From IMG/VR virus record IMGVR_UViG_2778261128_000006: DNA of 22,569 nt; one strand, written 5' to 3'. This document shows, in pieces, positions 2,360 to 19,949 of the stretch. The notes under the pieces were generated by a model. The model did not search any database. It was given only the letters and a program-made list of their open reading frames with translations, and had not been told where the DNA came from. Each line of letters begins with the position of its first letter. Position 1 is the first letter of the stretch. A program made the position numbers and the translations under genes. Source of the stretch: a virus. Lineage: Duplodnaviria > Heunggongvirae > Uroviricota > Caudoviricetes.

Positions 2360-2869
2360 ATGTTTGATTACCAAGTTTCCAAACATCCACATTTTGATGA
2401 AGCCTGTCGTGCATTCGCATTGCGCCACAACCTGGTGCAACTGGCAGAACGTGCTGGCATGAATGTGCAGATTCTGCGGAACAAGTTGAACCCAGCGCAA
2501 CCTCATTTATTAACCGCACCAGAAATCTGGCTGCTTACCGATCTGACTGAAGATTCAACGCTGGTAGATGGTTTTCTGGCTCAGATTCACTGCCTGCCAT
2601 GCGTACCGATTAATGAGGTGGCAAAAGAGAAACTGCCACATTACGTCATGAGTGCAACCGCAGAGATCGGGCGTGTTGCTGCAGGTGCGGTATCTGGCGA
2701 TGTAAAAACCAGTGCAGGTCGTCGTGATGCTATCAGCAGCATTAACTCTGTAACACGACTGATGGCGTTGGCTGCTGTTTCATTGCAGGCCCGTTTACAG
2801 GCTAACCCTGCGATGGCGAGTGCAGTTGATACCGTGACTGGCCTCGGTGCTTCATTCGGTTTGCTGTGA
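2360..2869 (+). CDS. cII: CII-like phage regulatory protein
   Basis: 169 aa from ATG at 2360 (the track ORF starts earlier at a TTG), about the length of 186 CII as I recall it; position after apl; RBS-like AGAGG upstream. Confidence 0.7.
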
Positions 2870-2876
2870 GGTGCTT

Positions 2877-3077
2877 ATGCTGACGAAAGAACCATCATTT
2901 GCATCGCTGCTGGTAAAGCAAAGCCCGGCAATGCACTACGGTCACGGCTGGATCATGGGTGAGGATGGAAAACGCTGGCATCCGTGCCGTTCACAAGATG
3001 AATTGCTGGCAGAACTATCTACGAAAAAACGGGGGAACAAATGGCTATTGAAGGCGCTGCGGCGACTGTTCCATTAA
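2877..3077 (+). CDS. Hypothetical small early protein
   Basis: ATG at 2877 inside track ORF 2847-3077; tightly packed in early operon. Confidence 0.45.
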   Translation: MLTKEPSFASLLVKQSPAMHYGHGWIMGEDGKRWHPCRSQDELLAELSTKKRGNKWLLKALRRLFH

Positions 3078-3382
3078 GACCCGGTGAACGCCTGAATGGA
3101 CTTAATCATATTGCGGAGTTAAGGGCGAAAGTTTTTGGTTTGAATATTGAGTCAGAGCTTGAGCGGTTTATTAAAGATATGCGTGATCCACGGGATATCA
3201 ATAATGAACAAAATAAACGGGCACTGGCTGCCATATTCTTTATGGCAAAAATTCCAGCTGAACGTCATAGCATCAGCATTAATGAGCTGACCACTGACGA
3301 AAAGCGGGAGTTGATTAAAGCAATGAATCATTTTCGTGCAGTGGTGAGCTTATTTCCCAGACGGCTAACCATGCCGAATTAA
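3041..3382 (+). CDS. Hypothetical early protein (113 aa)
   Basis: ORF in early operon; overlaps previous gene end as is typical for phage operons. Confidence 0.5.
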   Translation: MAIEGAAATVPLRPGERLNGLNHIAELRAKVFGLNIESELERFIKDMRDPRDINNEQNKRALAAIFFMAKIPAERHSISINELTTDEKRELIKAMNHFRAVVSLFPRRLTMPN

Positions 3383-3449
3383 CCAACTAATGAAATTAAT
3401 GGCGTAAACCCGCCGGGCATCCCTTTATCTAAATTCAGGAGAATTGCTT

Positions 3450-3683
3450 ATGCGTAATATTGAAACCCTCACGACCAAAACCGGACCGGATGATGCAGGT
3501 CTTAATCTTTTACTGACAGAGGCTCGTCTGGAAGAACGCCGGGCAAGGGCTGAAGCAATGGCTGCTCGCCTCGATAGCCTGGCGTGTCATATCACCTCCC
3601 GCCAGCTAAACCACGTCGAAGCGGCAGAACTGCTGCGTGTGACTGCTGAAGCAATCCAGAACGAAGCGCAGGAGATCCACTGA
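3450..3683 (+). CDS. Hypothetical small early protein (about 77 aa)
   Basis: ATG at 3450 preceded by GGAG; stop overlaps start of next gene (ATGA at 3680-3686). Confidence 0.5.
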   Translation: MRNIETLTTKTGPDDAGLNLLLTEARLEERRARAEAMAARLDSLACHITSRQLNHVEAAELLRVTAEAIQNEAQEIH

Positions 3684-3910
3684 TGGCTGATGCAATGGAT
3701 CTCGTACAGCAGCGCGTTGAAGAAGAACGCCAACGCCATATCCGTGCTGCCCGTGCCAAAACGCCGGGCGTGTCCCGCGTGCTTTGCGTTGAGTGTGAAG
3801 CGCCAATTCCGCCAGCACGCCGCCGTGCCATTCCTGGAGTGCAGCTTTGCATTACCTGCCAGGAAATCGCAGAGCTGAAAGGCAAACATTACAACGGAGG
3901 TGCTGTATGA
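3683..3910 (+). CDS. TraR/DksA-family C4 zinc-finger protein
   Basis: 75 aa with CxxC...CxxC (CVECEAP...CITCQE), typical of phage TraR-like zinc finger proteins found upstream of gene A in P2-like phages. Confidence 0.65.
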   Translation: MADAMDLVQQRVEEERQRHIRAARAKTPGVSRVLCVECEAPIPPARRRAIPGVQLCITCQEIAELKGKHYNGGAV

Positions 3911-4764
3911 GCACCATCCTGAAATGGGCGGGTAATAAAACCGCCATTATGTCCGAACTGAAAAAATACCTTCCTGCTGGCCCGCGACTGGTTGAACCTT
4001 TCGCGGGTTCTTGTGCTGTGATGATGGCGACGGATTACCCCAGCTATCTGGTTGCGGATATTAATCCTGATTTAATCAACCTCTATAAAAAGATTGCCGC
4101 TGATTGCGAAGCGTTTATATCTCGTGCCAAAGTTTTATTTGAGGAAGCAAACAGTGAGCTGGCTTATTACAACATAAGACAGGAGTTTAATTACTCAACT
4201 GAAATTACTGATTTCATGAAGGCGATATATTTCCTGTATCTCAATCGTCACGGTTACCGTGGTTTATGTCGCTATAACAAGAGCGGGTATTTCAACATTC
4301 CCTACGGTAATTATAAAAATCCGTATTTCCCTGAAAAAGAAATTCGCGCATTTGCAGAGAAAGCCCAGCGGGCAACGTTTATCTGCGCGAGCTTTGATGA
4401 AACGCTGGCGATGCTGCAGGTGGGGGATGTGGTGTATTGCGATCCGCCGTATGACGGTACGTTTTCCGGCTATCACACTGATGGTTTCACTGAAGATGAC
4501 CAGTATCACCTGGCATCCATTCTTGAACATCGGTCATCAGAAGGACATCCGGTCATTGTTTCTAACAATGACACATCCCTGATTCGTTCGCTGTATCGCA
4601 ATTTTACTCACCACTATATCAAGGCAAAACGCAGCATCGGCGTGTCAGCTGGCGAGGGTAAATCTGCAACAGAAATCATTGCTGTTTCCGGGCCGAGCTG
4701 CTGGTTGGGATTTGATCCTTCGCGTGGCGTGGATAGTTCTGCCGTGTACGGAGTGTGTGTATGA
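3907..4764 (+). CDS. dam: DNA N6-adenine methyltransferase (Dam-like, D12 class)
   Basis: N-terminal KWAGNK...FAGS AdoMet-binding motif and catalytic DPPY motif ([10 protein letters not shown]); ATG at 3907 after GGAGG. Confidence 0.85.
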
Positions 4765-7175
4765 GTCATGACGATATGAACTATTGCAGCGGCTTTAACG
4801 AGGCCGCCGCAGCATTTTCATGGAACGGCTCGAAAAAGGCCATTAACCCTTATCTGGACCCGGCGGAAGTTGCGCCGGAGTCTGCACTTTCAAACCTGAT
4901 CACTCTGTACGCTGCCGATAACGAGCAGGAACAACTGCGCCGCGAGGCACTGAGTGAGCAGGTCTGGGAGCGTTATTTCTTTAATGAATCCCGTGATCCT
5001 GTCCAGCGCGAAATGGAGCAGGATAAGCTCATTAGCCGGGCAAAGCTGGCGCATGAGCAGCAGCGTTTTAATCCGGACATGGTCATTCTGGCGGACGTAA
5101 ACGCCCAGCCTTCCCATATCAGCAAGCCGCTGATGCAACGTATTGAATACTTCAGCAGCCTGGGCAGGCCAAAGGCTTATTCCCGCTATTTGCGTGAGAC
5201 GATTAAGCCATGTCTGGAGCGACTGGATTGTGTACGTGACAGTCAGCTATCTGTTTCTTTCCGTTTTATGGCAAGCCATCAAGGGCTGGAGGGTCTGCTG
5301 ATCCTGCCTGAAATGAGCCAGGATCAGGTGAAACGCCTGTCCACCCTGGTAGCAGCGCATATGAGCATGTGTCTTGAGGACGCTTGTGGTGATTTGTATG
5401 CCACCGATGACGTTAAGCCAGAAGAAATCCGCAAGACATGGGAAAAGGTGGCAGCGGAAACCCTGCGTCTGGATGTTATCCCGCCTGCGTTTGAGAAACT
5501 TCGTCGGAAAATAAACCGCCGCAAACCAGTGCTCTATGAACTCATCCCGGGTTCGCTGGCGCGTATGTTGTGTGCCGACTGGTGGTATCGGAAATTATGG
5601 AAGATGCGTTGCGAATGGCGGGAAGAGCAGTTGCGTGCTGTCTGCCTGGTCAGCAAAAAAGCATCCCCCTATGTCAGCTATGAAGCCGTGATGCATAAAC
5701 GTGAGCAGCGCCGTAAGTCGCTGGAGTTTTTTCGTTCTCATGAACTGGTGAACGAAGACGGCGACACGCTGGATATGGAAGATGTGGTAAACGCCAGCAG
5801 CAGCAACCCGGCGCATCGCCGCAATGAGATGATGGCCTGTGTTAAAGGTCTGGAGCTTATCGCGGAAATGCGCAGTGACTGTGCCGTTTTCTACACTATC
5901 ACCTGTCCGTCGCGTTTCCATTCCACGCTCAATAACGGCAGACCAAACCCGACCTGGACAAACGCGACGGTAAGACAAAGTAGCGATTATCTGGTCGGCA
6001 TGTTTGCTGCATTTCGTAAGGCTATGCATAAAGCCGAGTTGCGCTGGTATGGCGTGCGGGTAGCTGAGCCGCATCATGACGGTACTGTGCACTGGCATCT
6101 CATGTGTTTCATGCGTAAAAAAGACCGCCGCGCCATCACTGCATTACTGCGTAAGTTTGCCATCCGTGAAGACCGCGAGGAGCTGGGCAATAACACGGGA
6201 CCACGCTTTAAGTCTGAGCTGATAAACCCGCGCAAAGGTACGCCAACAAGCTATATCGCGAAATACATCAGTAAGAACATTGACGGGCGTGGTCTGGCTG
6301 GGGAGATCAGCAAGGAAACGGGTAAATCCCTGCGTGATAACGCTGAATACGTTAATGCCTGGGCGTCTCTGCATCGTGTTCAGCAATTCCGCTTCTTTGG
6401 CATTCCGGGGCGTCAGGCTTACCGTGAACTGCGATTGCTGGCTGGTCAGGCGGCAAGGCAACAGGGTGACAAAAAAGCAGGTGCGCCGGTACTGGATAAC
6501 CCGCGTCTTGATGCAATCCTGGCTGCTGCTGATGCTGGTTGTTTTGCCACCTACATCATGAAGCAGGGCGGCGTACTGGTTCCCCGCAAATATCACCTCA
6601 TCAGAACTGCTTATGAAATCAACGAAGAACCGACCGCATATGGCGATCACGGTATTCGTATTTATGGCATCTGGTCACCCATTGCAGAGGGCAAGATCTG
6701 CACTCATGCGGTGAAGTGGAAAATGGTTCGTAAGGCCGTTGACGTTCAGGAGGCGGCAGCCGACCAGGGCGCTTGCGCCCCTTGGACTCGTGGCAATAAC
6801 TGTCCCCTTGCTGAAAATTTGAACCAACAAGGGAAAGACAAATCAGCTGATGGGGACTCCAGAACGGATATTACCCGTATGAATGACAAGGAGTTGCACA
6901 ATTACCTGCACAGTATGAGCAAAAAAGAGCGCCGGGAACTGGCTGCAAGGTTACGCCAGGTGAAACCGAAACGGCGTAAAGACTACAAACAGCGAATTAC
7001 AGACCATCAGCGACAGCAGCTCGTCTATGAACTGAAGTCCAGGGGATTTGATGGCAGCGAGAAAGAAGTCGATTTGCTCCTTCGCGGCGGCAGTATTCCG
7101 TCAGGAGCAGGCCTGCGTATCTTCTATCGGAACCAGCGTCTGAAGGAAGATGATAAGTGGCGGAACCTGTATTAA
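4755..7175 (+). CDS. A: P2 gpA-type replication initiation endonuclease
   Basis: About 800-aa ORF at the position of gene A in P2/186; rolling-circle initiator-like region around [10 protein letters not shown] with downstream tyrosines (YIAKYISK); start may be ATG 4755 or 4761. Confidence 0.85.
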
Positions 7176-7526: not shown

Positions 7527-7760
7527 ATGCGCATTGAAATAATGATCGATAAAGAGCAGAAGATTAGCCAGTCTACCCTGGACGCCCTTGAATCCGAGCT
7601 TTACCGCAATCTGCGCCCCCTGTATCCCAAAACGGTAATTCGCATTCGCAAAGGTAGCTCTAACGGTGTGGAACTAACCGGACTGCAACTGGATGAAGAA
7701 AGAAAACAAGTGATGAAAATTATGCAGAAGGTGTGGGAGGACGACAGCTGGCTGCATTAA
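7527..7760 (+). CDS. DinI-like protein (DNA-damage-inducible protein I family)
   Basis: 77 aa starting MRIEIMIDKEQ...; resembles DinI (MRIEVTIAK... with C-terminal W-E-D-W acidic tail) from memory; under LexA box. Confidence 0.7.
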   Translation: MRIEIMIDKEQKISQSTLDALESELYRNLRPLYPKTVIRIRKGSSNGVELTGLQLDEERKQVMKIMQKVWEDDSWLH

Positions 7761-7952
7761 GAAATGTTGCCCCCAGGAGGATTCATTCTGATGGGGGCTA
7801 GTTTGGGCAATGAGTGAAATAAGGCGTAAGGTGGGCGGTTATTTTGATAAGTGATCGTCCGCTTTGTGTCAGAAGCAGAAGTGGGAGTGTCTGAGACTCT
7901 CTAAAAGTTGATGATTCACTTACAAAACCATTTTCCTGATGGATGCTTACAC

Positions 7953-8288
7953 TTACGAATGATCATTCTGTTTAGTCTTCATGAGAAAATCCCGAATCTT
8001 TGCCAAGTTTGAATTTTCGGGGATTGAATCCATGTACGGATCACGCTCAAACACTAATTGCTCAGATTCAACGAAAGCCTGCCACTCTACTGGGTCTAGC
8101 TCAAATCCCATTGCTGTCATATCACTTTCATCTTCCCCCTCGATCCAGTGGACTAAATAAAACAATTCATCATCAGGAGAATCATCCTCACCATCAACAA
8201 TATCAACATCGGTTACAGTGATACGTAGGGTGGGATCGATTTTTGAGACATAAATTCCTAACTGTGGTATAGGGGGAATATTGTTCAT
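7953..8288 (-). CDS. Highly acidic hypothetical protein (111 aa)
   Basis: Minus-strand ORF with AAGGAG RBS 7 nt upstream of ATG; D/E-rich (stretches DGEDDSPDDE, EGEDESD); divergent from retron operon. Confidence 0.6.
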   Translation of the reverse strand: MNNIPPIPQLGIYVSKIDPTLRITVTDVDIVDGEDDSPDDELFYLVHWIEGEDESDMTAMGFELDPVEWQAFVESEQLVFERDPYMDSIPENSNLAKIRDFLMKTKQNDHS

Positions 8289-8760
8289 GGAAACTCCTTT
8301 TATTGGTGTTTGCTATTTGAATAAAAATACGCCAAACAGAGTGTTAACTGTGAATATGGAAAGAATCGTTGTAAGTACCCCGCTTAGGTGTCCCATTCTA
8401 TTTTAGAGGTTCTCGTGCATATGGATTATGTTATCTGAAAGTTAACTTCCGCTTCCCGTTCACAGCGAACATTCATCTTTGTAAACCCGTATGATCCGTT
8501 TTTCAAGTGGCCATTCAGATACGGATTTTCACTTCCTTGACAGTGCATGACTATGCTGCATGAAATCGCATGATCGATTGAGGATCGTCTTTGCTCAGAT
8601 CCGCCAGAACTGGCGGGCTTTTGCTCATGTTATGCATGTGCATGAAAACCACTGCATAAAGCGGGCAGGCGTGGCGGGGATACGAGCGCGCGCCATGTGG
8701 TATGGAGATTGGATCTATTCATAACTTGATGTATAAAGTAGAAAAAAAAGCGGGGAGATT

Positions 8761-9684
8761 ATGAATAAAAAATTTACCGATGAGCAGCAACAACAGCTTA
8801 TAGGACATCTCACAAAGAAAGGCTTCTATCGAGGAGCTAATATTAAAATAACCATTTTTCTATGTGGTGGTGACGTTGCTAATCATCAATCTTGGCGTCA
8901 TCAATTATCACAATTTTTAGCAAAGTTCAGTGATGTTGATATATTTTATCCAGAAGATCTATTTGATGATCTTTTGGCTGGTCAAGGGCAGCATAGCCTT
9001 TTAAGTTTAGAAAATATTCTGGCTGAAGCTGTCGATGTAATAATTTTATTTCCTGAAAGTCCGGGGTCTTTCACAGAGCTTGGTGCGTTCTCTAATAATG
9101 AAAACTTAAGGAGAAAGTTGATTTGCATTCAAGATGCAAAATTTAAATCAAAACGTAGCTTTATTAACTATGGTCCTGTTCGCCTGTTGCGTAAGTTTAA
9201 TTCAAAATCTGTTTTGCGTTGTAGTTCAAATGAACTAAAAGAAATGTGTGATTCATCTATTGATGTTGCCAGAAAATTACGATTATATAAAAAATTAATG
9301 GCATCTATTAAGAAGGTTAGGAAAGAAAATAAAGTATCAAAAGATATTGGAAATATATTATACGCAGAGCGGTTTCTATTGCCTTGTATCTATTTACTGG
9401 ATAGTGTCAACTACCGCACACTGTGTGAACTAGCTTTTAAAGCGATAAAGCAAGATGATGTTTTATCTAAAATTATTGTTAGATCCGTTGTTTCTCGTCT
9501 AATAAATGAACGAAAAATACTTCAAATGACTGATGGTTATCAGGTCACTGCTTTGGGGGCTAGCTATGTTAGGAGCGTCTTTGATAGAAAGACACTTGAC
9601 CGATTGCGGCTTGAGATTATGAATTTTGAAAACCGTAGAAAATCAACATTTAACTATGATAAGATTCCGTATGCGCACCCTTAG
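8761..9684 (+). CDS. Retron effector, nucleoside 2-deoxyribosyltransferase-like (NDT) protein with C-terminal basic domain
   Basis: 307-aa AT-rich ORF directly upstream of msr-msd and RT; Rossmann-like N-terminal region (KITIFLCGG ... VIILFPESPGSFTELG); its 3' end overlaps the a1 repeat; matches the Retron-Eco1 effector as I recall it. Confidence 0.8.
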   Translation: MNKKFTDEQQQQLIGHLTKKGFYRGANIKITIFLCGGDVANHQSWRHQLSQFLAKFSDVDIFYPEDLFDDLLAGQGQHSLLSLENILAEAVDVIILFPESPGSFTELGAFSNNENLRRKLICIQDAKFKSKRSFINYGPVRLLRKFNSKSVLRCSSNELKEMCDSSIDVARKLRLYKKLMASIKKVRKENKVSKDIGNILYAERFLLPCIYLLDSVNYRTLCELAFKAIKQDDVLSKIIVRSVVSRLINERKILQMTDGYQVTALGASYVRSVFDRKTLDRLRLEIMNFENRRKSTFNYDKIPYAHP

Positions 9685-9840
9685 CGAGAGGTTTATCATT
9701 AAGGTCAACCTCTGGATGTTGTTTCGGCATCCTGCATTGAATCTGAGTTACTGTCTGTTTTCCTTGTTGGAACGGAGAGCATCGCCTGATGCTCTCCGAG
9801 CCAACCAGGAAACCCGTTTTTTCTGACGTAAGGGTGCGCA
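9672..9840 (+). ncRNA. msr-msd: Retron msr-msd non-coding RNA (Ec86/Eco1-type) flanked by a1/a2 inverted repeats
   Basis: a1 TGCGCACCCTTA at 9672-9683 and a2 TAAGGGTGCGCA at 9829-9840 are perfect inverted repeats; long msd hairpin 9760-9811 (24-bp arms around GCCT loop); sequence matches the Ec86 ncRNA as I remember it from retron editing constructs. Confidence 0.85.
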
Positions 9841-9846
9841 ACTTTC

Positions 9847-10809
9847 ATGAAATCCGCTGAATATTTGAACACTTTTAGATTGAGAAATCTCGGCCTACCT
9901 GTCATGAACAATTTGCATGACATGTCTAAGGCGACTCGCATATCTGTTGAAACACTTCGGTTGTTAATCTATACAGCTGATTTTCGCTATAGGATCTACA
10001 CTGTAGAAAAGAAAGGCCCAGAGAAGAGAATGAGAACCATTTACCAACCTTCTCGAGAACTTAAAGCCTTACAAGGATGGGTTCTACGTAACATTTTAGA
10101 TAAACTGTCGTCATCTCCTTTTTCTATTGGATTTGAAAAGCACCAATCTATTTTGAATAATGCTACCCCGCATATTGGGGCAAACTTTATACTGAATATT
10201 GATTTGGAGGATTTTTTCCCAAGTTTAACTGCTAACAAAGTTTTTGGAGTGTTCCATTCTCTTGGTTATAATCGACTAATATCTTCAGTTTTGACAAAAA
10301 TATGTTGTTATAAAAATCTGCTACCACAAGGTGCTCCATCATCACCTAAATTAGCTAATCTAATATGTTCTAAACTTGATTATCGTATTCAGGGTTATGC
10401 AGGTAGTCGGGGCTTGATATATACGAGATATGCCGATGATCTCACCTTATCTGCACAGTCTATGAAAAAGGTTGTTAAAGCACGTGATTTTTTATTTTCT
10501 ATAATCCCAAGTGAAGGATTGGTTATTAACTCAAAAAAAACTTGTATTAGTGGGCCTCGTAGTCAGAGGAAAGTTACAGGTTTAGTTATTTCACAAGAGA
10601 AAGTTGGGATAGGTAGAGAAAAATATAAAGAAATTAGAGCAAAGATACATCATATATTTTGCGGTAAGTCTTCTGAGATAGAACACGTTAGGGGATGGTT
10701 GTCATTTATTTTAAGTGTGGATTCAAAAAGCCATAGGAGATTAATAACTTATATTAGCAAATTAGAAAAAAAATATGGAAAGAACCCTTTAAATAAAGCG
10801 AAGACCTAA
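9847..10809 (+). CDS. ret: Retron reverse transcriptase (Ec86/Eco1-type, 320 aa)
   Basis: RT motifs including YADD (RYADDLTLS) and retron-specific VTG (RKVTGLVI); length and sequence match Ec86 RT from memory. Confidence 0.95.
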   Translation: MKSAEYLNTFRLRNLGLPVMNNLHDMSKATRISVETLRLLIYTADFRYRIYTVEKKGPEKRMRTIYQPSRELKALQGWVLRNILDKLSSSPFSIGFEKHQSILNNATPHIGANFILNIDLEDFFPSLTANKVFGVFHSLGYNRLISSVLTKICCYKNLLPQGAPSSPKLANLICSKLDYRIQGYAGSRGLIYTRYADDLTLSAQSMKKVVKARDFLFSIIPSEGLVINSKKTCISGPRSQRKVTGLVISQEKVGIGREKYKEIRAKIHHIFCGKSSEIEHVRGWLSFILSVDSKSHRRLITYISKLEKKYGKNPLNKAKT

Positions 10810-10822
10810 TGGTCTTCGTTTT
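10799..10822. terminator. Bidirectional hairpin terminator between retron RT and portal gene Q
   Basis: CGAAGACC / TAAT / GGTCTTCG perfect 8-bp stem spanning the RT stop codon, followed by TTTT on plus strand and T-rich run on the minus strand. Confidence 0.5.
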
Positions 10823-10826
10823 AAAA

Positions 10827-11855
10827 CTAAAGCTCATAGGTTGAAAAATTGAGCACTTCTTCGTCCAACCAGTTATTTAGTTCCTGCAATCGTTTCTGCA
10901 GGGGCATCAATTCGTTTCTTACGAATACCTTGCTAGCCTTCTCCACATCCCCAAACCCCCCGACATTATTAGGCATAATTCCCATCATTTGCGGCGGCAC
11001 GCGGTGTGCCGCCATCATGTCATCACGGCTCACGTTCTTGATATTCAGAAACTCATCCTTCGCTGTGACTTCTGACAACGGGATAATCTGAAGTCCGTCT
11101 TTTTTACCATTAGGCGAGTACATAAACAGGTTGCGGAAGTTGCCAGGGCCTTTGGCACTTTTCATCGCATTGCGGAGGTTGTTCACATCTTCCTGGTTCT
11201 GCGCGGCATCGGTCATGTACATGATGAAGCCTGCATGACTACCGTTAATGTAATACTTTCGGCGGAACAGCGTGGCGGACTCGTTGAGCAGGGCGGATGG
11301 GATGGCAGAAAGATAGCCGGGCAGGCCGTAGATCTCCTGGTTGATGTCCGGTTCCATCAGATGAAAAATGCTGCCTTTCGTGAACTGATACGGCTGCGTG
11401 GTCATGCCGTATTGCACAAACCAGTAGGTATCTAGGTCTAATCCGCGTCGGGTGTATTTTGCCAGCGCAGGCTCAAGGGCGATAACTTCACCGAATCGGT
11501 TCGTGCGTTTCTCCAGGTAGGCGTTACCAAAAACCAGATAGTCCTGCACAAAACGTGAAAACGCCTGCTGGCTGAGCAGCGGGTGAGGGATGTAGGTGCT
11601 GGTCAGAATGTTGCACTTTACTGCAATCGGTGAACTGTGGTGTACGGCGGCGCGGAATGTTCGCGCCAGTCCGTCAAAACTTACGGGTGGCTCATACCAG
11701 CGGTCCATCTTTACGCATTCCACATAGTCCAGTAATTCGCGGCGGTCCAGAACAGGAACGGGATCACCGAAGCTGAATGCTTCGGCTGAAGTTTGGTTTT
11801 TATGCTGGATCTGGTTCGTCGCCGCAGCGCGGTTTTTCTTACTCTTTCCCATCAA
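10827..11855 (-). CDS. Q: Phage portal protein (P2 gpQ-like)
   Basis: 342 aa, minus strand, directly downstream of terminase gene in a P-Q operon; size and order as in P2. Confidence 0.8.
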   Translation of the reverse strand: MMGKSKKNRAAATNQIQHKNQTSAEAFSFGDPVPVLDRRELLDYVECVKMDRWYEPPVSFDGLARTFRAAVHHSSPIAVKCNILTSTYIPHPLLSQQAFSRFVQDYLVFGNAYLEKRTNRFGEVIALEPALAKYTRRGLDLDTYWFVQYGMTTQPYQFTKGSIFHLMEPDINQEIYGLPGYLSAIPSALLNESATLFRRKYYINGSHAGFIMYMTDAAQNQEDVNNLRNAMKSAKGPGNFRNLFMYSPNGKKDGLQIIPLSEVTAKDEFLNIKNVSRDDMMAAHRVPPQMMGIMPNNVGGFGDVEKASKVFVRNELMPLQKRLQELNNWLDEEVLNFSTYEL

Positions 11856-13760: not shown

Positions 13761-14513
13761 ATGACAGTGAAAGCAAAGCGTTTTCGCATCGGGGTGGAAG
13801 GTGCCACCACCGACGGACGCGAAATCCAGCGTGAATGGCTGGAACAGATGGCAGCCAGCTACAACCCGGCGGTGTATACCGCGCTGATTAACCTTGAGCA
13901 CATCAAGTCTTATCTGCCGGACAGCACCTTTAACCGCTACGGCAAGGTGACGGCGCTGTTTGCTGAGGAAATCACGGAAGGTCCGCTGGCAGGCAAGATG
14001 GCGCTGTATGCCGACGTTGAGCCAACGGAGTCCCTGGTGGAACTGGTGAAAAAAGGCCAGAAATTATTCACCTCTATGGAAGTCAGCCCGAAGTTCGCTG
14101 ATACGGGCAAAGCCTACCTGGTCGGCCTGGCTGCCACTGATGACCCTGCCAGTCTGGGCACTGAAATGCTGACATTCAGCGCCAGTGCAGCCCATAACCC
14201 GCTGGCAAACCGCAAGCAGAATCCTGCCAATCTCTTTACCGCTGCAGAGGAAACGGTGATCGAACTGGAGGAAGTCCAGGACGACAAACCGTCCCTGTTT
14301 TCCCGCGTCACGGCGCTGTTCACCAAAAAAGAGCAGTCCGATGACGCCCGGTTCTCTGATGTGCATAAGGCCGTGGAGCTGGTCGCCACTGAGCAGCAAA
14401 ACCTGAGCGCGCGAACCGAAAAATCTCTGTCTGAGCAGGAAGAACGCCTGTCTGAACTGGAGTCTGCTCTGCAGAAGCAGCAACGGGCAATGCCTGTAGT
14501 TCCACACTGGTGA
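13761..14513 (+). CDS. O: Capsid scaffold protein (P2 gpO-like), C-terminally truncated by deletion
   Basis: N-terminal 220 aa resemble P2 gpO (FRIGVEG...INLEH...YLVGLAATDDPASLGTE); ORF ends abruptly and is followed in another frame by an endolysin C-terminus. Confidence 0.75.
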   Translation: MTVKAKRFRIGVEGATTDGREIQREWLEQMAASYNPAVYTALINLEHIKSYLPDSTFNRYGKVTALFAEEITEGPLAGKMALYADVEPTESLVELVKKGQKLFTSMEVSPKFADTGKAYLVGLAATDDPASLGTEMLTFSASAAHNPLANRKQNPANLFTAAEETVIELEEVQDDKPSLFSRVTALFTKKEQSDDARFSDVHKAVELVATEQQNLSARTEKSLSEQEERLSELESALQKQQRAMPVVPHW

Positions 14514-14653
14514 AATTGCTCAATCAGCGGCGCTGGGCAGATGCGTGCCGACAGTTGCCGCGCTGGGTTTATGTAAAAGGTGTGTTTAATCAGGGGCTGG
14601 ATAACCGCCGTGCGCGGGAGATGGCCTGGTGCCTTAAAGGAGCTGGACTATGA
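14510..14653 (+). pseudogene. Remnant C-terminus of phage endolysin (P2 gpK / lambda R-like lysozyme), no start codon
   Basis: Frame translation ...KLLNQRRWADACRQLPRWVYVKGVFNQGLDNRRAREMAWCLKGAGL-stop, overlapping lysB start in ATGA; genes N, M, L, X, Y and most of K absent. Confidence 0.6.
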
Positions 14654-15078
14654 CGCGTGCGCTGGCAGTAGTGGTGGCGCTGGCACTCGTTGCGCTGGGC
14701 TGGCAGTCGTGGCGGCTTAACAGCGCCAGCCACACCATCGAAACGCAGCGCGCGGCGCTGAAAAGTAAAGCGCAGGAACTGACGAAGAAAAACAGCCAGC
14801 TTATCAGCCTGTCCATTCTGACTGAAACCAATAACCGGGAGCAGGCGCGGCTCTATGCCGAAGCAGAACAGACCAGTGCACTGCTGAGACAACGACAACA
14901 CCGGATCGAGGAACTGAAACGTGAGAACGAGGATTTACGCCGCTGGGCTGATACTCCTTTGCCTGCTGACATTATCCGGCTGCGGGAACGTCCGGCACTC
15001 ACCGGAGGTACAGCTTACCGTCAGTGGTTGTCCGCGAGTGACGCCGTGTCGGCTGGATCAGGCAACGCCGCGCACTAA
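14650..15078 (+). CDS. lysB: LysB / Rz-like i-spanin
   Basis: 142 aa, N-terminal TM helix then coiled-coil rich in R/E/Q; position after endolysin remnant. Confidence 0.75.
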   Translation: MTRALAVVVALALVALGWQSWRLNSASHTIETQRAALKSKAQELTKKNSQLISLSILTETNNREQARLYAEAEQTSALLRQRQHRIEELKRENEDLRRWADTPLPADIIRLRERPALTGGTAYRQWLSASDAVSAGSGNAAH

Positions 15079-15605: not shown

Positions 15606-16044
15606 ACTGCAGAAGGTGGACGACTGGCTTAGTGCCTTACTGGCGAATCTGGAACCAGTCGCAAGAAGCCGCATGATGCGCCAGCTGGCGCAGGAACTGC
15701 GCCGGACACAGCAGCAGAATATCAGGATGCAGCGCAATCCAGATGGCAGCAGTTATGAACCGCGCAAGGTCACGGCGCGCAGTAAAAAAGGCCGCATCAA
15801 ACGTCAGATGTTTGCAAAGCTGCGCACCACCAAATACCTGAAAACCGCCGCCAGCGCCGACTCTGCCAGCGTACAGTTTGAAAGTAAGGTGCAGCGCATT
15901 GCCCGCGTTCACCATTATGGCCTGCGCGATCGCGTCAGCCGCAAAGGACCGGAAGTGCGTTACGCAGAGCGTCGTTTGTTGGGTCTTAATGGTGAGTCTT
16001 ACGTTCTAACTCGTGATATATTGAATAGATTCCTTCTGTCTTGA
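15598..16044 (+). CDS. S: Tail completion / virion morphogenesis protein (P2 gpS-like), C-terminal end runs into AT-rich foreign DNA
   Basis: GTG start overlapping R stop; sequence composition changes near 15990, so last about 18 codons are probably not native. Confidence 0.65.
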   Translation: MAELQKVDDWLSALLANLEPVARSRMMRQLAQELRRTQQQNIRMQRNPDGSSYEPRKVTARSKKGRIKRQMFAKLRTTKYLKTAASADSASVQFESKVQRIARVHHYGLRDRVSRKGPEVRYAERRLLGLNGESYVLTRDILNRFLLS

Positions 16045-16792
16045 ATTCACCATATGCCCAATGAATTGCATTTTTTTGTTCAGTCAGAATATATTTCCTA
16101 ACTTTTTTAGAATAGTGAATGGTCAGTATAAAACCCAAAGAAATCCATAATAGAATAAATATGGTTGTTGGGGCAAAGGAATAGATAAAGAATTTGTCTT
16201 TAACGAAATTCTTGACTTCTTCATCAATGTAAGTATTCCCTTCATCAGTGGTTAGTAGTTTACAAAGAATTTCTTTATGTTCGATAGTTAATGATTTGTA
16301 CTTCTCTGTACTGGCAGAGGATGACTCTTCGCAATCATCTTTTGATATTTCCCAATCAGGAGTGGTTAATATTGTAGCTGCAGTCGCCAGTTTTTTTGAC
16401 ATATAAAATGATTCACCGGACTTTATCCAATAAAGCAATGTGCTATTTGGTGGGGTTCTAATGGCTTGGATGAAAACTGGACCAAAAATATAAATTGCAC
16501 ACAAAAAAAGAAGTGAAAAGAGAACCGTGATTGATTTTTCAGCCCATGTGATAGTAGGCAGCCTTTTTAATGATATTCGTATAAGAAAAAAATTTAATAT
16601 AAACGCAGGTATTCCTGATTTTTTCAAAATTACATCATGAGATTTTCTATATTTGAATAGTGCTCTTATAACTATCGTCACCAAAGTTATAACAGCTCCA
16701 ATAATGGAAATCCATGCGGCAAGTGCCGCTGCCGGGGTGTTTAAAAATTCAGCATTAAATATATTAGAACTTATTGGATTCATAACACTCAT
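15986..16792 (-). CDS. Multi-pass membrane protein, hypothetical (AT-rich insertion)
   Basis: 268-aa ORF in a very AT-rich block; at least 4 hydrophobic helices (e.g. AALAAWISIIGAVITLVTIVI, ITVLFSLLFLCAIYIFGPVFI, TTIFILLWISLGFILTI); no recognisable enzymatic motif. Confidence 0.6.
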   Translation of the reverse strand: MSVMNPISSNIFNAEFLNTPAAALAAWISIIGAVITLVTIVIRALFKYRKSHDVILKKSGIPAFILNFFLIRISLKRLPTITWAEKSITVLFSLLFLCAIYIFGPVFIQAIRTPPNSTLLYWIKSGESFYMSKKLATAATILTTPDWEISKDDCEESSSASTEKYKSLTIEHKEILCKLLTTDEGNTYIDEEVKNFVKDKFFIYSFAPTTIFILLWISLGFILTIHYSKKVRKYILTEQKNAIHWAYGEFKTEGIYSIYHELERKTHH

Positions 16793-16895: not shown

Positions 16896-17621
16896 ATGAA
16901 CGCACAACTAACCGAAATCATGCGCCTTATCACCAATCTGATCCGCATAGGTGTAGTCACCGAAGTGGACCGGGAAAACTGGCTTTGTCGGGTGAAAACG
17001 GGCGACCTTGAAACCAACTGGATCAGCTGGCTGACGCTGCGCGCGGGTAATGCCCGCACATGGTGGCGACCATCGGAAGGTGAGCAGGTGGTGCTGCTGA
17101 GTCTGGGCGGCAATCTGGAGACTGCCTTTGCGCTGCCCGCTGTCTATTCGAATCAGTTCGCACCACCGTCGACGTCGGCGGACGCCTGCGTGACAGAACA
17201 TCCTGACGGTGGCTGGTTTGAATACGAACCCGCCACCGGGCGCTGGTATGTCAGGGGCATCAAATCAATGGTCATTGAGGCCGCTGATAACATCACCATG
17301 AAAACCAGTGAGTTTGTACTGGAGGCTGACCGCACGCGCATTAACAGCGAAGTGGTGATCAATGGTGGCGTTATTCCTTCACCCACGCATGAAGAACTTA
17401 TTGAAATTTCTGAGTCAAAAAGACAGCTATTAATTAATCAGGCCAACGAATACATGAACAGTAAACAATGGCCCGGTAAAGCCGCTATTGGTCGTCTGAA
17501 AGGCGAGGAACTGGCGCAATATAATTCGTGGCTGGATTATCTGGACGCACTGGAGCTGGTTGATACCTCCAGTGTGCCAGATATTGAATGGCCTACGCCT
17601 CCGGCAGTTCAGGCCAGATGA
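16896..17621 (+). pseudogene. Chimeric ORF: N-terminus of baseplate spike gpV fused to C-terminus of a tail fibre assembly protein (deletion junction)
   Basis: Starts MNAQLTEIMRLITNLIRIGVV...RTWW.PS.GEQV like P2 gpV; ends ...WLDYLDALELVDTSSVPDIEWPTPP like Tfa C-termini (compare the convergent Tfa at 17593-18195). Confidence 0.65.
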
Positions 17622-19714: not shown

Positions 19715-19792
19715 CGCTGCCGCCATTTTGTCGCCATCGTTAAAAAACAGTGCTTCTAACATCATGATTTTAAAGAGCATAAATTTCAGGCA

Positions 19793-19837
19793 ACAAAAAA
19801 CCCATCAACCTTGAACCGAAATGGCGGGGTTGATGGG
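19793..19837 (-). terminator. Rho-independent terminator (minus strand), probably host ybjL terminator near the prophage right boundary
   Basis: CCCATCAACC ... GGTTGATGGG 10-bp stem, followed on the minus strand by TTTTTTGTTG. Confidence 0.45.
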
Positions 19838-19949
19838 CTCCACAAAATGGGGACATCAAAGAAAAGCAGTGGCACTAATTAAGACTGATGCCCTGCGGAA
19901 AAGTTCTGCGGTTGTGCAAAAAAATTTCATTTTCAGGGCAACTTCAGTT

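What the first reader, a model, noticed from the sequence alone, without database searches (positions are those of the whole stretch)
8761..10826. Complete Retron-Eco1 (Ec86)-type retron in the A-to-Q accessory slot of the prophage
An NDT-like effector (8761-9684), an msr-msd ncRNA with perfect 12-bp a1/a2 inverted repeats (9672-9683, 9829-9840) and a long msd hairpin, and a 320-aa RT with YADD and VTG motifs form a compact operon closed by a hairpin terminator. The block is much more AT-rich than the flanking phage genes. It sits where P2 carries old/tin, a position known to hold varied anti-phage cargo. From memory this is the well-studied Ec86 retron, so it is a known defence system rather than a new one.
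Basis: partly seen in the sequence, partly recalled or inferred. Interest (0 to 1): 0.7.

Follow-up and report, generated by a model that had tools for sequence, protein, structure and literature searches.

The report
Known retron Ec86 in B-strain prophage
This stretch is an exact copy of Retron-Eco1 (Ec86), the well-studied anti-phage retron of E. coli B and BL21 strains, sitting in a decayed P2/186-like prophage, so it is real but already fully described.

Summary
The 307-aa ORF (8761-9684) and the 320-aa ORF (9847-10809) are 100% identical, end to end, to the Retron Ec86 effector and reverse transcriptase in solved structures (7v9x_C, 7v9u_A). PADLOC models call them NDT_II-A (2.7e-94) and RT_II-A (7e-128).

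The perfect 12-bp a1/a2 repeats (9672-9683, 9829-9840) and the long msd hairpin (9759-9812) are present. The 173-nt RNA folds far better than shuffles (z = -8.7). The DNA from 8700 to 10830 is 100% identical to 48 of 5,426 complete E. coli genomes; those listed are mostly E. coli B derivatives (BL21, REL606).

Three refinements:
- The cassette lies between the prophage cos site (8668-8686) and the portal gene. That is the other side of cos from P2 tin/old, and this placement was published by Dodd and Egan in 1996.
- The closing hairpin scores as the terminator of the portal operon on the minus strand. It is weaker on the retron strand.
- The last base of the effector's stop codon is the msr branching G.

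The mechanism comes from the literature. RT-msDNA holds an N-glycosidase effector in filaments, and phage Dcm methylation of the msDNA releases NAD(P)+ hydrolysis. Verdict: already known, low interest.

The parts
8668..8686 (.). Prophage cos-site homologue (GGCGTGGCGGGGATACGAG). It marks the left boundary of the retron cassette. Homology to phage 186 ends about 9 bp to its right, near 8695.
   Evidence: The phage 186 cos junction aligns to 8629-8695 (53/67 identical, E 8e-12). The P2 junction aligns to 8630-8693 (48/64, E 9e-8). cos is annotated at bases 1-19 of the P2 and 186 records. The flank 8450-8693 is conserved in a related prophage and 8542-8693 in 80 P2-like phage records.
8709..8737 (+). 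Candidate sigma-70 promoter for the operon (TTGGAT, 17 nt, TATAAA), followed by the Shine-Dalgarno sequence GGGGAG. This is inference only.
   Evidence: Read by eye from the sequence. The scan did not call it, because the second hexamer ends in A.
8761..9684 (+). Retron effector of 307 aa: an N-terminal nucleoside-deoxyribosyltransferase-like N-glycosidase with a C-terminal winged-helix DNA-binding lobe.
   Evidence: ORF. 100% identical over residues 1-307 to PDB 7v9x_C, 'Retron Ec86 putative ribosyltransferase/DNA-binding protein'. PADLOC NDT_II-A, 2.7e-94. No Pfam family. Domain description from PMC12746101.
9672..9683 (+). a1 inverted repeat. It overlaps the last codons of the effector ORF.
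   Evidence: Pairs perfectly over 12 bp with 9829-9840.
9684..9684 (+). Branching (priming) guanosine directly 3' of a1. It is also the last base of the effector stop codon TAG.
   Evidence: The sequence shows G after a1. Its role is assigned from the general retron architecture and the Eco1 figure description in PMC6868368. It was not tested here.
9687..9732 (+). Two msr stem-loops. The second, 9714-9732, is an 8-bp stem with a UUU loop and is the RT recognition hairpin.
   Evidence: Predicted fold. The review reports that RT-Eco1 region Y binds an 8-bp stem with a UUU loop (PMC6868368).
9742..9827 (+). msd template of 86 nt, copied right to left by the RT starting at C9827. It holds the long hairpin 9759-9812 and one CCWGG (Dcm) site at 9805-9809.
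   Evidence: Hairpin arms, fold, 86-nt reverse complement printed. The end points come from my memory of the published msDNA-Ec86 sequence. Structures report 85 nt (PMC12673091).
9829..9840 (+). a2 inverted repeat.
9847..10809 (+). Retron reverse transcriptase RT-Eco1 of 320 aa, with NATPH, YADD and VTG motifs.
   Evidence: 100% identical over residues 1-320 to PDB 7v9u_A. PADLOC RT_II-A, 7.1e-128. Pfam RVT_1, 2.9e-25. Motif positions.
10799..10818 (.). Hairpin of 8 bp (5 G-C pairs) between the convergent RT and portal genes. It is flanked by an A-run and a T-run and is probably a bidirectional terminator.
   Evidence: Called terminator-like on the minus strand, just after the portal stop codon at 10827. 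The plus-strand tail is TTTTAAAA. P2 and 186 have tQ/tW annotated at the equivalent place.

Best explanation
This is Retron-Eco1 (Ec86), a type II-A retron anti-phage system, intact and identical in sequence to the copy in E. coli B, BL21 and REL606.

Shown here:
- A three-part operon on the plus strand: effector, msr-msd ncRNA, RT.
- It sits between the cos site and the portal gene of a defective P2/186-like prophage integrated next to rybB/ybjL.

Taken from the literature on the identical molecules:
- The ncRNA folds with a1/a2 paired. The RT binds the msr hairpin (8-bp stem, UUU loop).
- The RT primes from the 2'-OH of the G after a1 and copies the msd region into an 85-86-nt hairpin DNA, joined 2'-5' to the msr RNA. 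This product is the msDNA.
- RT-msDNA binds the N-glycosidase (NDT-like) effector and assembles into filaments that keep the effector in check.
- On infection, a phage-encoded Dcm methylase methylates the msDNA.
- The effector then hydrolyses NAD(P)+ and may ADP-ribosylate DNA, stopping the infected cell (abortive infection).

Inferred here:
- The single CCWGG site at 9805-9809 in the msd stem is the Dcm target.
- The promoter lies in 8696-8760.
For: - Protein identity: both proteins are 100% identical over full length to the Ec86 chains in PDB entries 7v9u, 7v9x, 7xjg, 8qbk-m and 9jm0.
- Family models: PADLOC RT_II-A at 7e-128 and NDT_II-A at 2.7e-94 are the top hits.
- ncRNA: a1/a2 and the msd hairpin are present, with fold z = -8.66.
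- RT motifs: NAxxH, YADD and VTG are present. The review names NAXXH and VTG as retron-RT hallmarks (PMC6868368).
- DNA identity: 8700-10830 is 100% identical to 48 complete E. coli genomes; the 25 listed are mostly laboratory B derivatives. RefSeq annotates 'retron St85 family effector / RNA-directed DNA polymerase' at this place.
- Mechanism: PMC12673091 describes filaments, NAD(P)+ hydrolysis, the Dcm trigger and an 85-nt msdDNA. PMC12746101 gives type II-A3, the effector bound to RT and msDNA, and loss of defence when the RT active site or the branching G is mutated.
- Location: cos lies at 8668-8686. Cargo varies in related prophages. This matches the published hotspot (PMC9122126) and the title of Dodd and Egan 1996.
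Against: - Nothing in the sequence argues against it.
- Rfam has no family that matches the ncRNA. That reflects the library, not the RNA.
- No msDNA or phage assay can be run here, so activity in the source strain rests on sequence identity.
- The primary mechanism papers (Carabias 2024, Wang 2024) are not held, so the mechanism is quoted second-hand. The quoting paper itself says the detailed mechanism remains unclear.
- The msd end points come from my memory of the published msDNA. Two literature searches for the sequence found nothing.
Confidence: 0.97

Rival explanations
1. The RT belongs to another class of bacterial reverse transcriptase (group II intron maturase, diversity-generating retroelement, Abi/UG/DRT), and the flanking repeats are coincidental.
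For: Pfam sees only the generic RVT_1 domain. Distant PDB hits include group II intron RTs at E 1e-4 to 1e-5.
Against: The RT is 100% identical to the Ec86 retron RT. The top 25 PADLOC hits are all retron RT models. The retron-specific NAxxH and VTG motifs are present. The a1/a2 repeats, the G after a1 and the msd hairpin sit in the canonical arrangement.
Confidence: 0.005
2. The retron is a dead passenger of a decaying prophage: the sequence is present but no longer expressed or functional in this host.
For: The prophage is heavily deleted. Compared with an intact relative, it lacks the major capsid gene through most lysis genes and the sheath, tube and tape-measure genes. The window also lacks another 3.76 kb. 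No promoter was called upstream of the effector by the scan.
Against: Both ORFs are intact and identical to proteins that were purified with msDNA and shown to be active. The ncRNA region is 100% identical to BL21. Ec86 msDNA was originally found in E. coli B carrying this same defective prophage (Lim and Maas 1989, cited).
Confidence: 0.02

Closest known systems
Retron-Eco1 (Ec86) of E. coli B / BL21 (type II-A3)
   Same: Everything that could be tested matches. RT is 320/320 identical, effector 307/307 identical. DNA 8700-10830 is 100% identical. Gene order and prophage context are the same.
   Different: Nothing within the retron. Outside it, the window differs from BL21(DE3), which lacks window 2697-6053. 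It also differs from every complete genome searched, all of which have 3,758 bp more at window 17372/17373.
Retron-Sen2 (St85) and other type II-A retrons
   Same: RefSeq names both genes 'retron St85 family'. Other PADLOC RT_II-A and NDT_II-A models also match, at 2.9e-70 and 2.2e-38. The design is the same: an NDT-like effector plus RT plus ncRNA.
   Different: They differ in sequence, msDNA and host. No direct comparison with St85 was made here.
Retron-Eco2 (Ec67) in a 186-related prophage
   Same: It occupies the same genetic site in other E. coli strains (PMC6868368; title of Dodd and Egan 1996). Its RT is a relative, at E 4.5e-34.
   Different: Ec67 is a type I-C RT-Toprim fusion of 596 aa with no separate NDT effector.
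P2 old/tin and the P2 gpA-gpQ defence hotspot
   Same: It is the same variable, cos-proximal region between the replication gene A and the portal gene Q. That region is known to hold retrons and other defence genes (PMC9122126). Related prophages here carry an ATPase plus SIR2 and a GTP pyrophosphokinase, or a TIGR02391 protein.
   Different: old/tin lie on the A side of cos and are read on the opposite strand. The retron lies on the Q side of cos. The proteins and mechanism are unrelated.

Membership tests
Retron (general) | Reverse transcriptase with the catalytic YxDD box plus the retron-specific NAxxH (region X) and VTG (region Y) motifs | tested here: met
   NATPH at aa 105-109, YADD at 195-198, VTG at 243-245. 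The motif definitions come from PMC6868368. Pfam RVT_1, 2.9e-25.
Retron (general) | ncRNA next to the RT, bounded by inverted repeats a1/a2, with a guanosine directly 3' of a1 as the priming residue | tested here: met
   Perfect 12-bp repeats at 9672-9683 and 9829-9840. G at 9684. a2 ends 6 nt before the RT start codon.
Retron (general) | Structured msr hairpins and an msd stem-loop within the ncRNA | tested here: met
   Fold z = -8.66, with two msr hairpins and a 54-nt msd hairpin. Arms of 25 nt, 88% complementary.
Retron (general) | Production of branched RNA-DNA msDNA | not testable with these tools
   Established experimentally for the identical sequence in E. coli B and in the solved structures.
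Type II-A retron (NDT-like effector) | Separate effector with a nucleoside-deoxyribosyltransferase-like domain plus a DNA-binding lobe, encoded in the same operon as the ncRNA and RT | tested here: met
   PADLOC NDT_II-A, 2.7e-94, covering residues 8-293. Identical to PDB 7v9x_C. Same strand, with the effector stop codon overlapping a1. Classified as type II-A3 in PMC12746101.
Retron-Eco1 (Ec86) itself | Sequence identity of the RT, the effector and the ncRNA region to the E. coli B element | tested here: met
   320/320 and 307/307 residues identical. 2,131 of 2,131 bases identical to BL21(DE3) and REL606.
Retron-Eco1 (Ec86) itself | Anti-phage activity through an NAD(P)+-hydrolysing filament triggered by phage Dcm | not testable with these tools
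   Literature only (PMC12673091). A CCWGG site is present in the msd at 9805-9809 (read).
P2-like prophage cos-proximal defence hotspot | Located between replication gene A and portal gene Q, with content that varies among related prophages | tested here: met
   A is at 4755-7175 and the portal gene at 10827-11855. Homology to a related intact prophage breaks at 7876 and resumes at 10888, apart from the cos flank. Other cargo is seen. The hotspot definition is in PMC9122126.
P2 tin/old position (strict sense) | Cargo between gene A/orf91 and cos, on the right arm of the phage genome | tested here: not met
   cos is at 8668-8686 and the retron starts at 8761, so it is on the portal side. P2 old/tin are upstream of cosR. 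The strict tin/old-equivalent slot (7877 to about 8450) holds only a 111-aa ORF of unknown function.

The most novel reading that the evidence does not exclude
The retron itself offers nothing new. The most novel reading still open concerns two other AT-rich, unannotated cargo genes of the same prophage. One is the 111-aa ORF at 7953-8288 (-), in the true tin/old-equivalent slot between the DinI-like gene and cos. The other is the DUF6216 ORF at 15986-16792 (-), in the P2 orf30 slot. Either could be an undescribed anti-phage or anti-defence gene, possibly working alongside Eco1.
Probability: 0.07. Interest if true: 0.35.

Novelty: already known. Interest (0 to 1): 0.07.

Why it matters
It matters only as annotation. 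The scan correctly picked out a complete defence system from raw sequence, and the call can be trusted. Retron-Eco1 was the first retron found in E. coli. It has several cryo-EM structures, a described trigger and effector chemistry, and wide use as a genome-editing tool. Finding it again in a B-lineage chromosome teaches nothing new. The exact placement between cos and the portal gene was published in 1996.

Tried and rejected
- Rfam at gathering threshold over the whole window, and at E up to 10 over 9600-9900, found no retron or msr family. The only hits were chance miRNA and leader matches.
- Megablast of the retron against the phage collection found no match. The element is known only from the defective prophage, not from a sequenced free phage in that set.
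- The P2 cos 19-mer with up to 3 mismatches gave no hit. cos was found instead by aligning the P2 and 186 end junctions. It differs from P2 at 5 of 19 positions and from 186 at 4 of 19.
- My first 186 junction script had a slicing bug and aligned only the portal gene. It was redone.
- Full-text searches for the msr and msd sequences found no paper.
- The primary mechanism papers (Mol Cell 2024, Cell Rep 2024) are not held.
- One literature search and one paper look-up failed on term syntax. Two family scans failed on an off-by-one coordinate.
- I considered an internal promoter for the ncRNA near 9655-9660 (TATGAT). There is no acceptable -35 element, so I do not claim it.
- Full-length identity to solved structures makes them pointless.

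Full report
**Observation.** Between them, the inverted-repeat search returns a perfect 12-nt pair, TGCGCACCCTTA at 9672-9683 and TAAGGGTGCGCA at 9829-9840. It also returns a 25-nt hairpin, 88% complementary, at 9759-9783 and 9788-9812.

Folded as RNA, 9670-9842 gives the canonical retron ncRNA shape. There is an a1/a2 closing stem, three unpaired bases beginning with G9684, two msr hairpins and a long msd hairpin. The second msr hairpin is an 8-bp stem with a UUU loop at 9714-9732. The energy is -81.1 kcal/mol against -45.8 +/- 4.1 for dinucleotide shuffles (z = -8.66, 0 of 200 shuffles as good).

The RT carries NATPH (aa 105-109), YADD (195-198) and VTG (243-245). The block has GC 0.355, against 0.526 for gene A and 0.548 for the portal and terminase genes.

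**Identity.** The 320-aa protein is identical at every residue to PDB 7v9u_A, 'RNA-directed DNA polymerase from retron EC86' (E 4.5e-214, residues 1-320 on 1-320). The next retron RTs, Ec67 and Kva2, are far behind at about 1e-34. The 307-aa protein is identical at every residue to 7v9x_C, 'Retron Ec86 putative ribosyltransferase/DNA-binding protein'.

PADLOC's best models are RT_II-A (7.1e-128) and NDT_II-A (2.7e-94). Pfam sees only RVT_1 in the RT and nothing in the effector.

The DNA from 8700 to 10830 is 100% identical to 48 of 5,426 complete E. coli genomes. The 25 listed are mostly laboratory E. coli B derivatives: BL21, BL21(DE3), REL606, C41/C43, NEB Express and T7 Express lines. RefSeq annotates 'retron St85 family effector protein' and 'retron St85 family RNA-directed DNA polymerase' there. 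The sequenced-phage collection has no match. Rfam has no family for the ncRNA.

This is therefore Retron-Eco1 (Ec86) itself. It is type II-A3 and was the first retron found in E. coli, in strain B (PMC12746101; PMC6868368).

**Anatomical details.**
- a1 lies inside the last codons of the effector gene. The G of its TAG stop codon (9684) is the base directly 3' of a1, which is the position of the priming guanosine (role).
- The reverse complement of 9742-9827 is 86 nt and starts with G, templated by C9827. This fits the name Ec86 and the review's note that reverse transcription starts at a cytosine. The end points rest on my memory of the published msDNA. Structures report 85 nt (PMC12673091).
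- The msd holds one CCWGG site, at 9805-9809.
- RefSeq starts the RT at Met26 (window 9922, 295 aa). The deposited structures use the 320-aa form, which starts 6 nt after a2.

**Context.** The window begins at the integrase gene of a P2/186-like prophage and ends in grxA. The gene order is int, CI, cII through A (4755-7175), a 62-aa ORF, a DinI-like gene (7527-7760, Pfam DinI 6.6e-23), a 111-aa ORF on the minus strand, the retron, then portal and terminase on the minus strand, followed by remnants of the late genes, ogr, rybB and ybjL.

An intact relative at the same chromosomal site is 95% identical up to window 7876 and again from 10888. In between, only 8450-8693 is shared. That shared piece is the cos region. 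The end junction of phage 186 aligns to 8629-8695 (53/67, E 8e-12), with its 19-nt cohesive end on 8668-8686. The P2 junction aligns to the same place.

So the retron fills the space between cos and the portal gene. In P2 and 186 that space is about 140 bp and ends in the terminator tQ/tW. P2's old and tin lie on the other side of cos. This is what the title of Dodd and Egan (Virology 1996) states for Ec67 and Ec86 (cited in PMC6868368 and PMC5694545).

It also falls within the gpA-gpQ hotspot of Rousset et al., which they report holds retrons among many defence systems (PMC9122126). The slot is variable here too. The intact relative carries an ATPase plus SIR2 pair on the A side of cos and a GTP pyrophosphokinase on the portal side. 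Another relative carries a TIGR02391 protein.

**Terminator.** The hairpin 10799-10818 (8 bp, 5 G-C pairs) overlaps the RT's last codons. The scan called it only on the minus strand, right after the portal stop codon at 10827. On the plus strand it is followed by TTTT, then A's. With an A-run on one side and a T-run on the other, it is best read as a bidirectional terminator shared by the convergent portal and retron transcripts.

**Mechanism.**
- *Shown here:* the parts, their order, the RNA fold, and identity to the studied molecules.
- *From the literature on those molecules:* RT region Y binds the 8-bp, UUU-loop msr hairpin. The RT primes on the branching G and makes the msDNA. Mutating the RT active site or the branching G abolishes defence. 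RT-msDNA binds the N-glycosidase effector and forms filaments. Phage-encoded Dcm methylates the msdDNA. The effector then hydrolyses NAD(P)+ and may ADP-ribosylate DNA, although the quoting paper says details remain unclear (PMC12673091).
- *Inferred by me:* the CCWGG at 9805-9809 is the methylation site, and a promoter (TTGGAT, 17 nt, TATAAA at 8709-8737) drives the operon from just right of cos. The scan did not call that promoter.

**Rivals.** A non-retron RT is excluded. A dead passenger in a decayed prophage is unlikely. The ORFs and the ncRNA are identical to the active system, and Ec86 msDNA was discovered in E. coli B carrying this same defective prophage.

**Verdict.** The system is already known in full, so interest is low.

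Noticed in passing
window 17372-17373: The window lacks 3,758 bp that BL21(DE3) and the best-matching complete genome (NZ_CP029371.1) carry. The deleted stretch runs from the middle of baseplate gene V through W, J, I and H into the tail-fibre assembly gene. The junction shows a 2-bp microhomology (TA). No complete E. coli genome in the collection holds the junction in one piece, so it is either a strain-specific deletion or an assembly or extraction artefact.
   Followed up: partly
window 2697-6053: The window has the intact cII, fil, Dam-methylase and A (replication endonuclease) region, which BL21(DE3) has lost. BL21(DE3) annotates cII and A as truncated pseudogenes. The window therefore does not come from BL21(DE3) itself but from a B-lineage genome with the fuller early region.
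   Followed up: partly
window 19792-19870 (-): RybB sRNA, full length, 105 bits in Rfam. It lies just past the ogr end of the prophage, next to ybjL. The prophage is therefore inserted beside rybB.
   Followed up: no
window 7953-8288 (-): A 111-aa acidic ORF with no Pfam or PADLOC match. It is the only gene in the variable stretch between the DinI-like gene and cos, which is the slot strictly equivalent to P2 tin/old. Related prophages carry an ATPase plus SIR2 pair there. Its function is unknown.
   Followed up: partly
window 15986-16792 (-): An AT-rich (GC 0.33) 268-aa ORF on the opposite strand, between the virion-morphogenesis gene and baseplate gene V. By my recollection this is the position of P2 orf30. 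It matches Pfam DUF6216 (1.5e-11) and has no PADLOC hit. A related prophage has a different hypothetical gene at the same spot (L003 21400-22251), so this looks like a second variable cargo slot.
   Followed up: partly
window 13761-14700 approx.: The capsid scaffold gene O is fused to a fragment of the lysozyme gene. The major capsid gene, small terminase, head completion, tail X and holin genes are missing compared with the intact relative L003. Sheath, tube, tape measure and most of D are also absent. The prophage cannot make particles.
   Followed up: partly
window 8450-8693: The A-side flank of cos is conserved at 87-90% in 80 P2-like phage records from Klebsiella, Yersinia, Salmonella and Escherichia. 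It contains a terminator-like hairpin at 8600-8617 (+), equivalent in position to 186's t95b.
   Followed up: partly
window 9922: RefSeq/PGAP starts the retron RT at Met26 (295 aa, WP_226347323.1). The experimentally used and structurally solved protein is the 320-aa form starting at 9847. This is an annotation discrepancy, not a biological one.
   Followed up: yes
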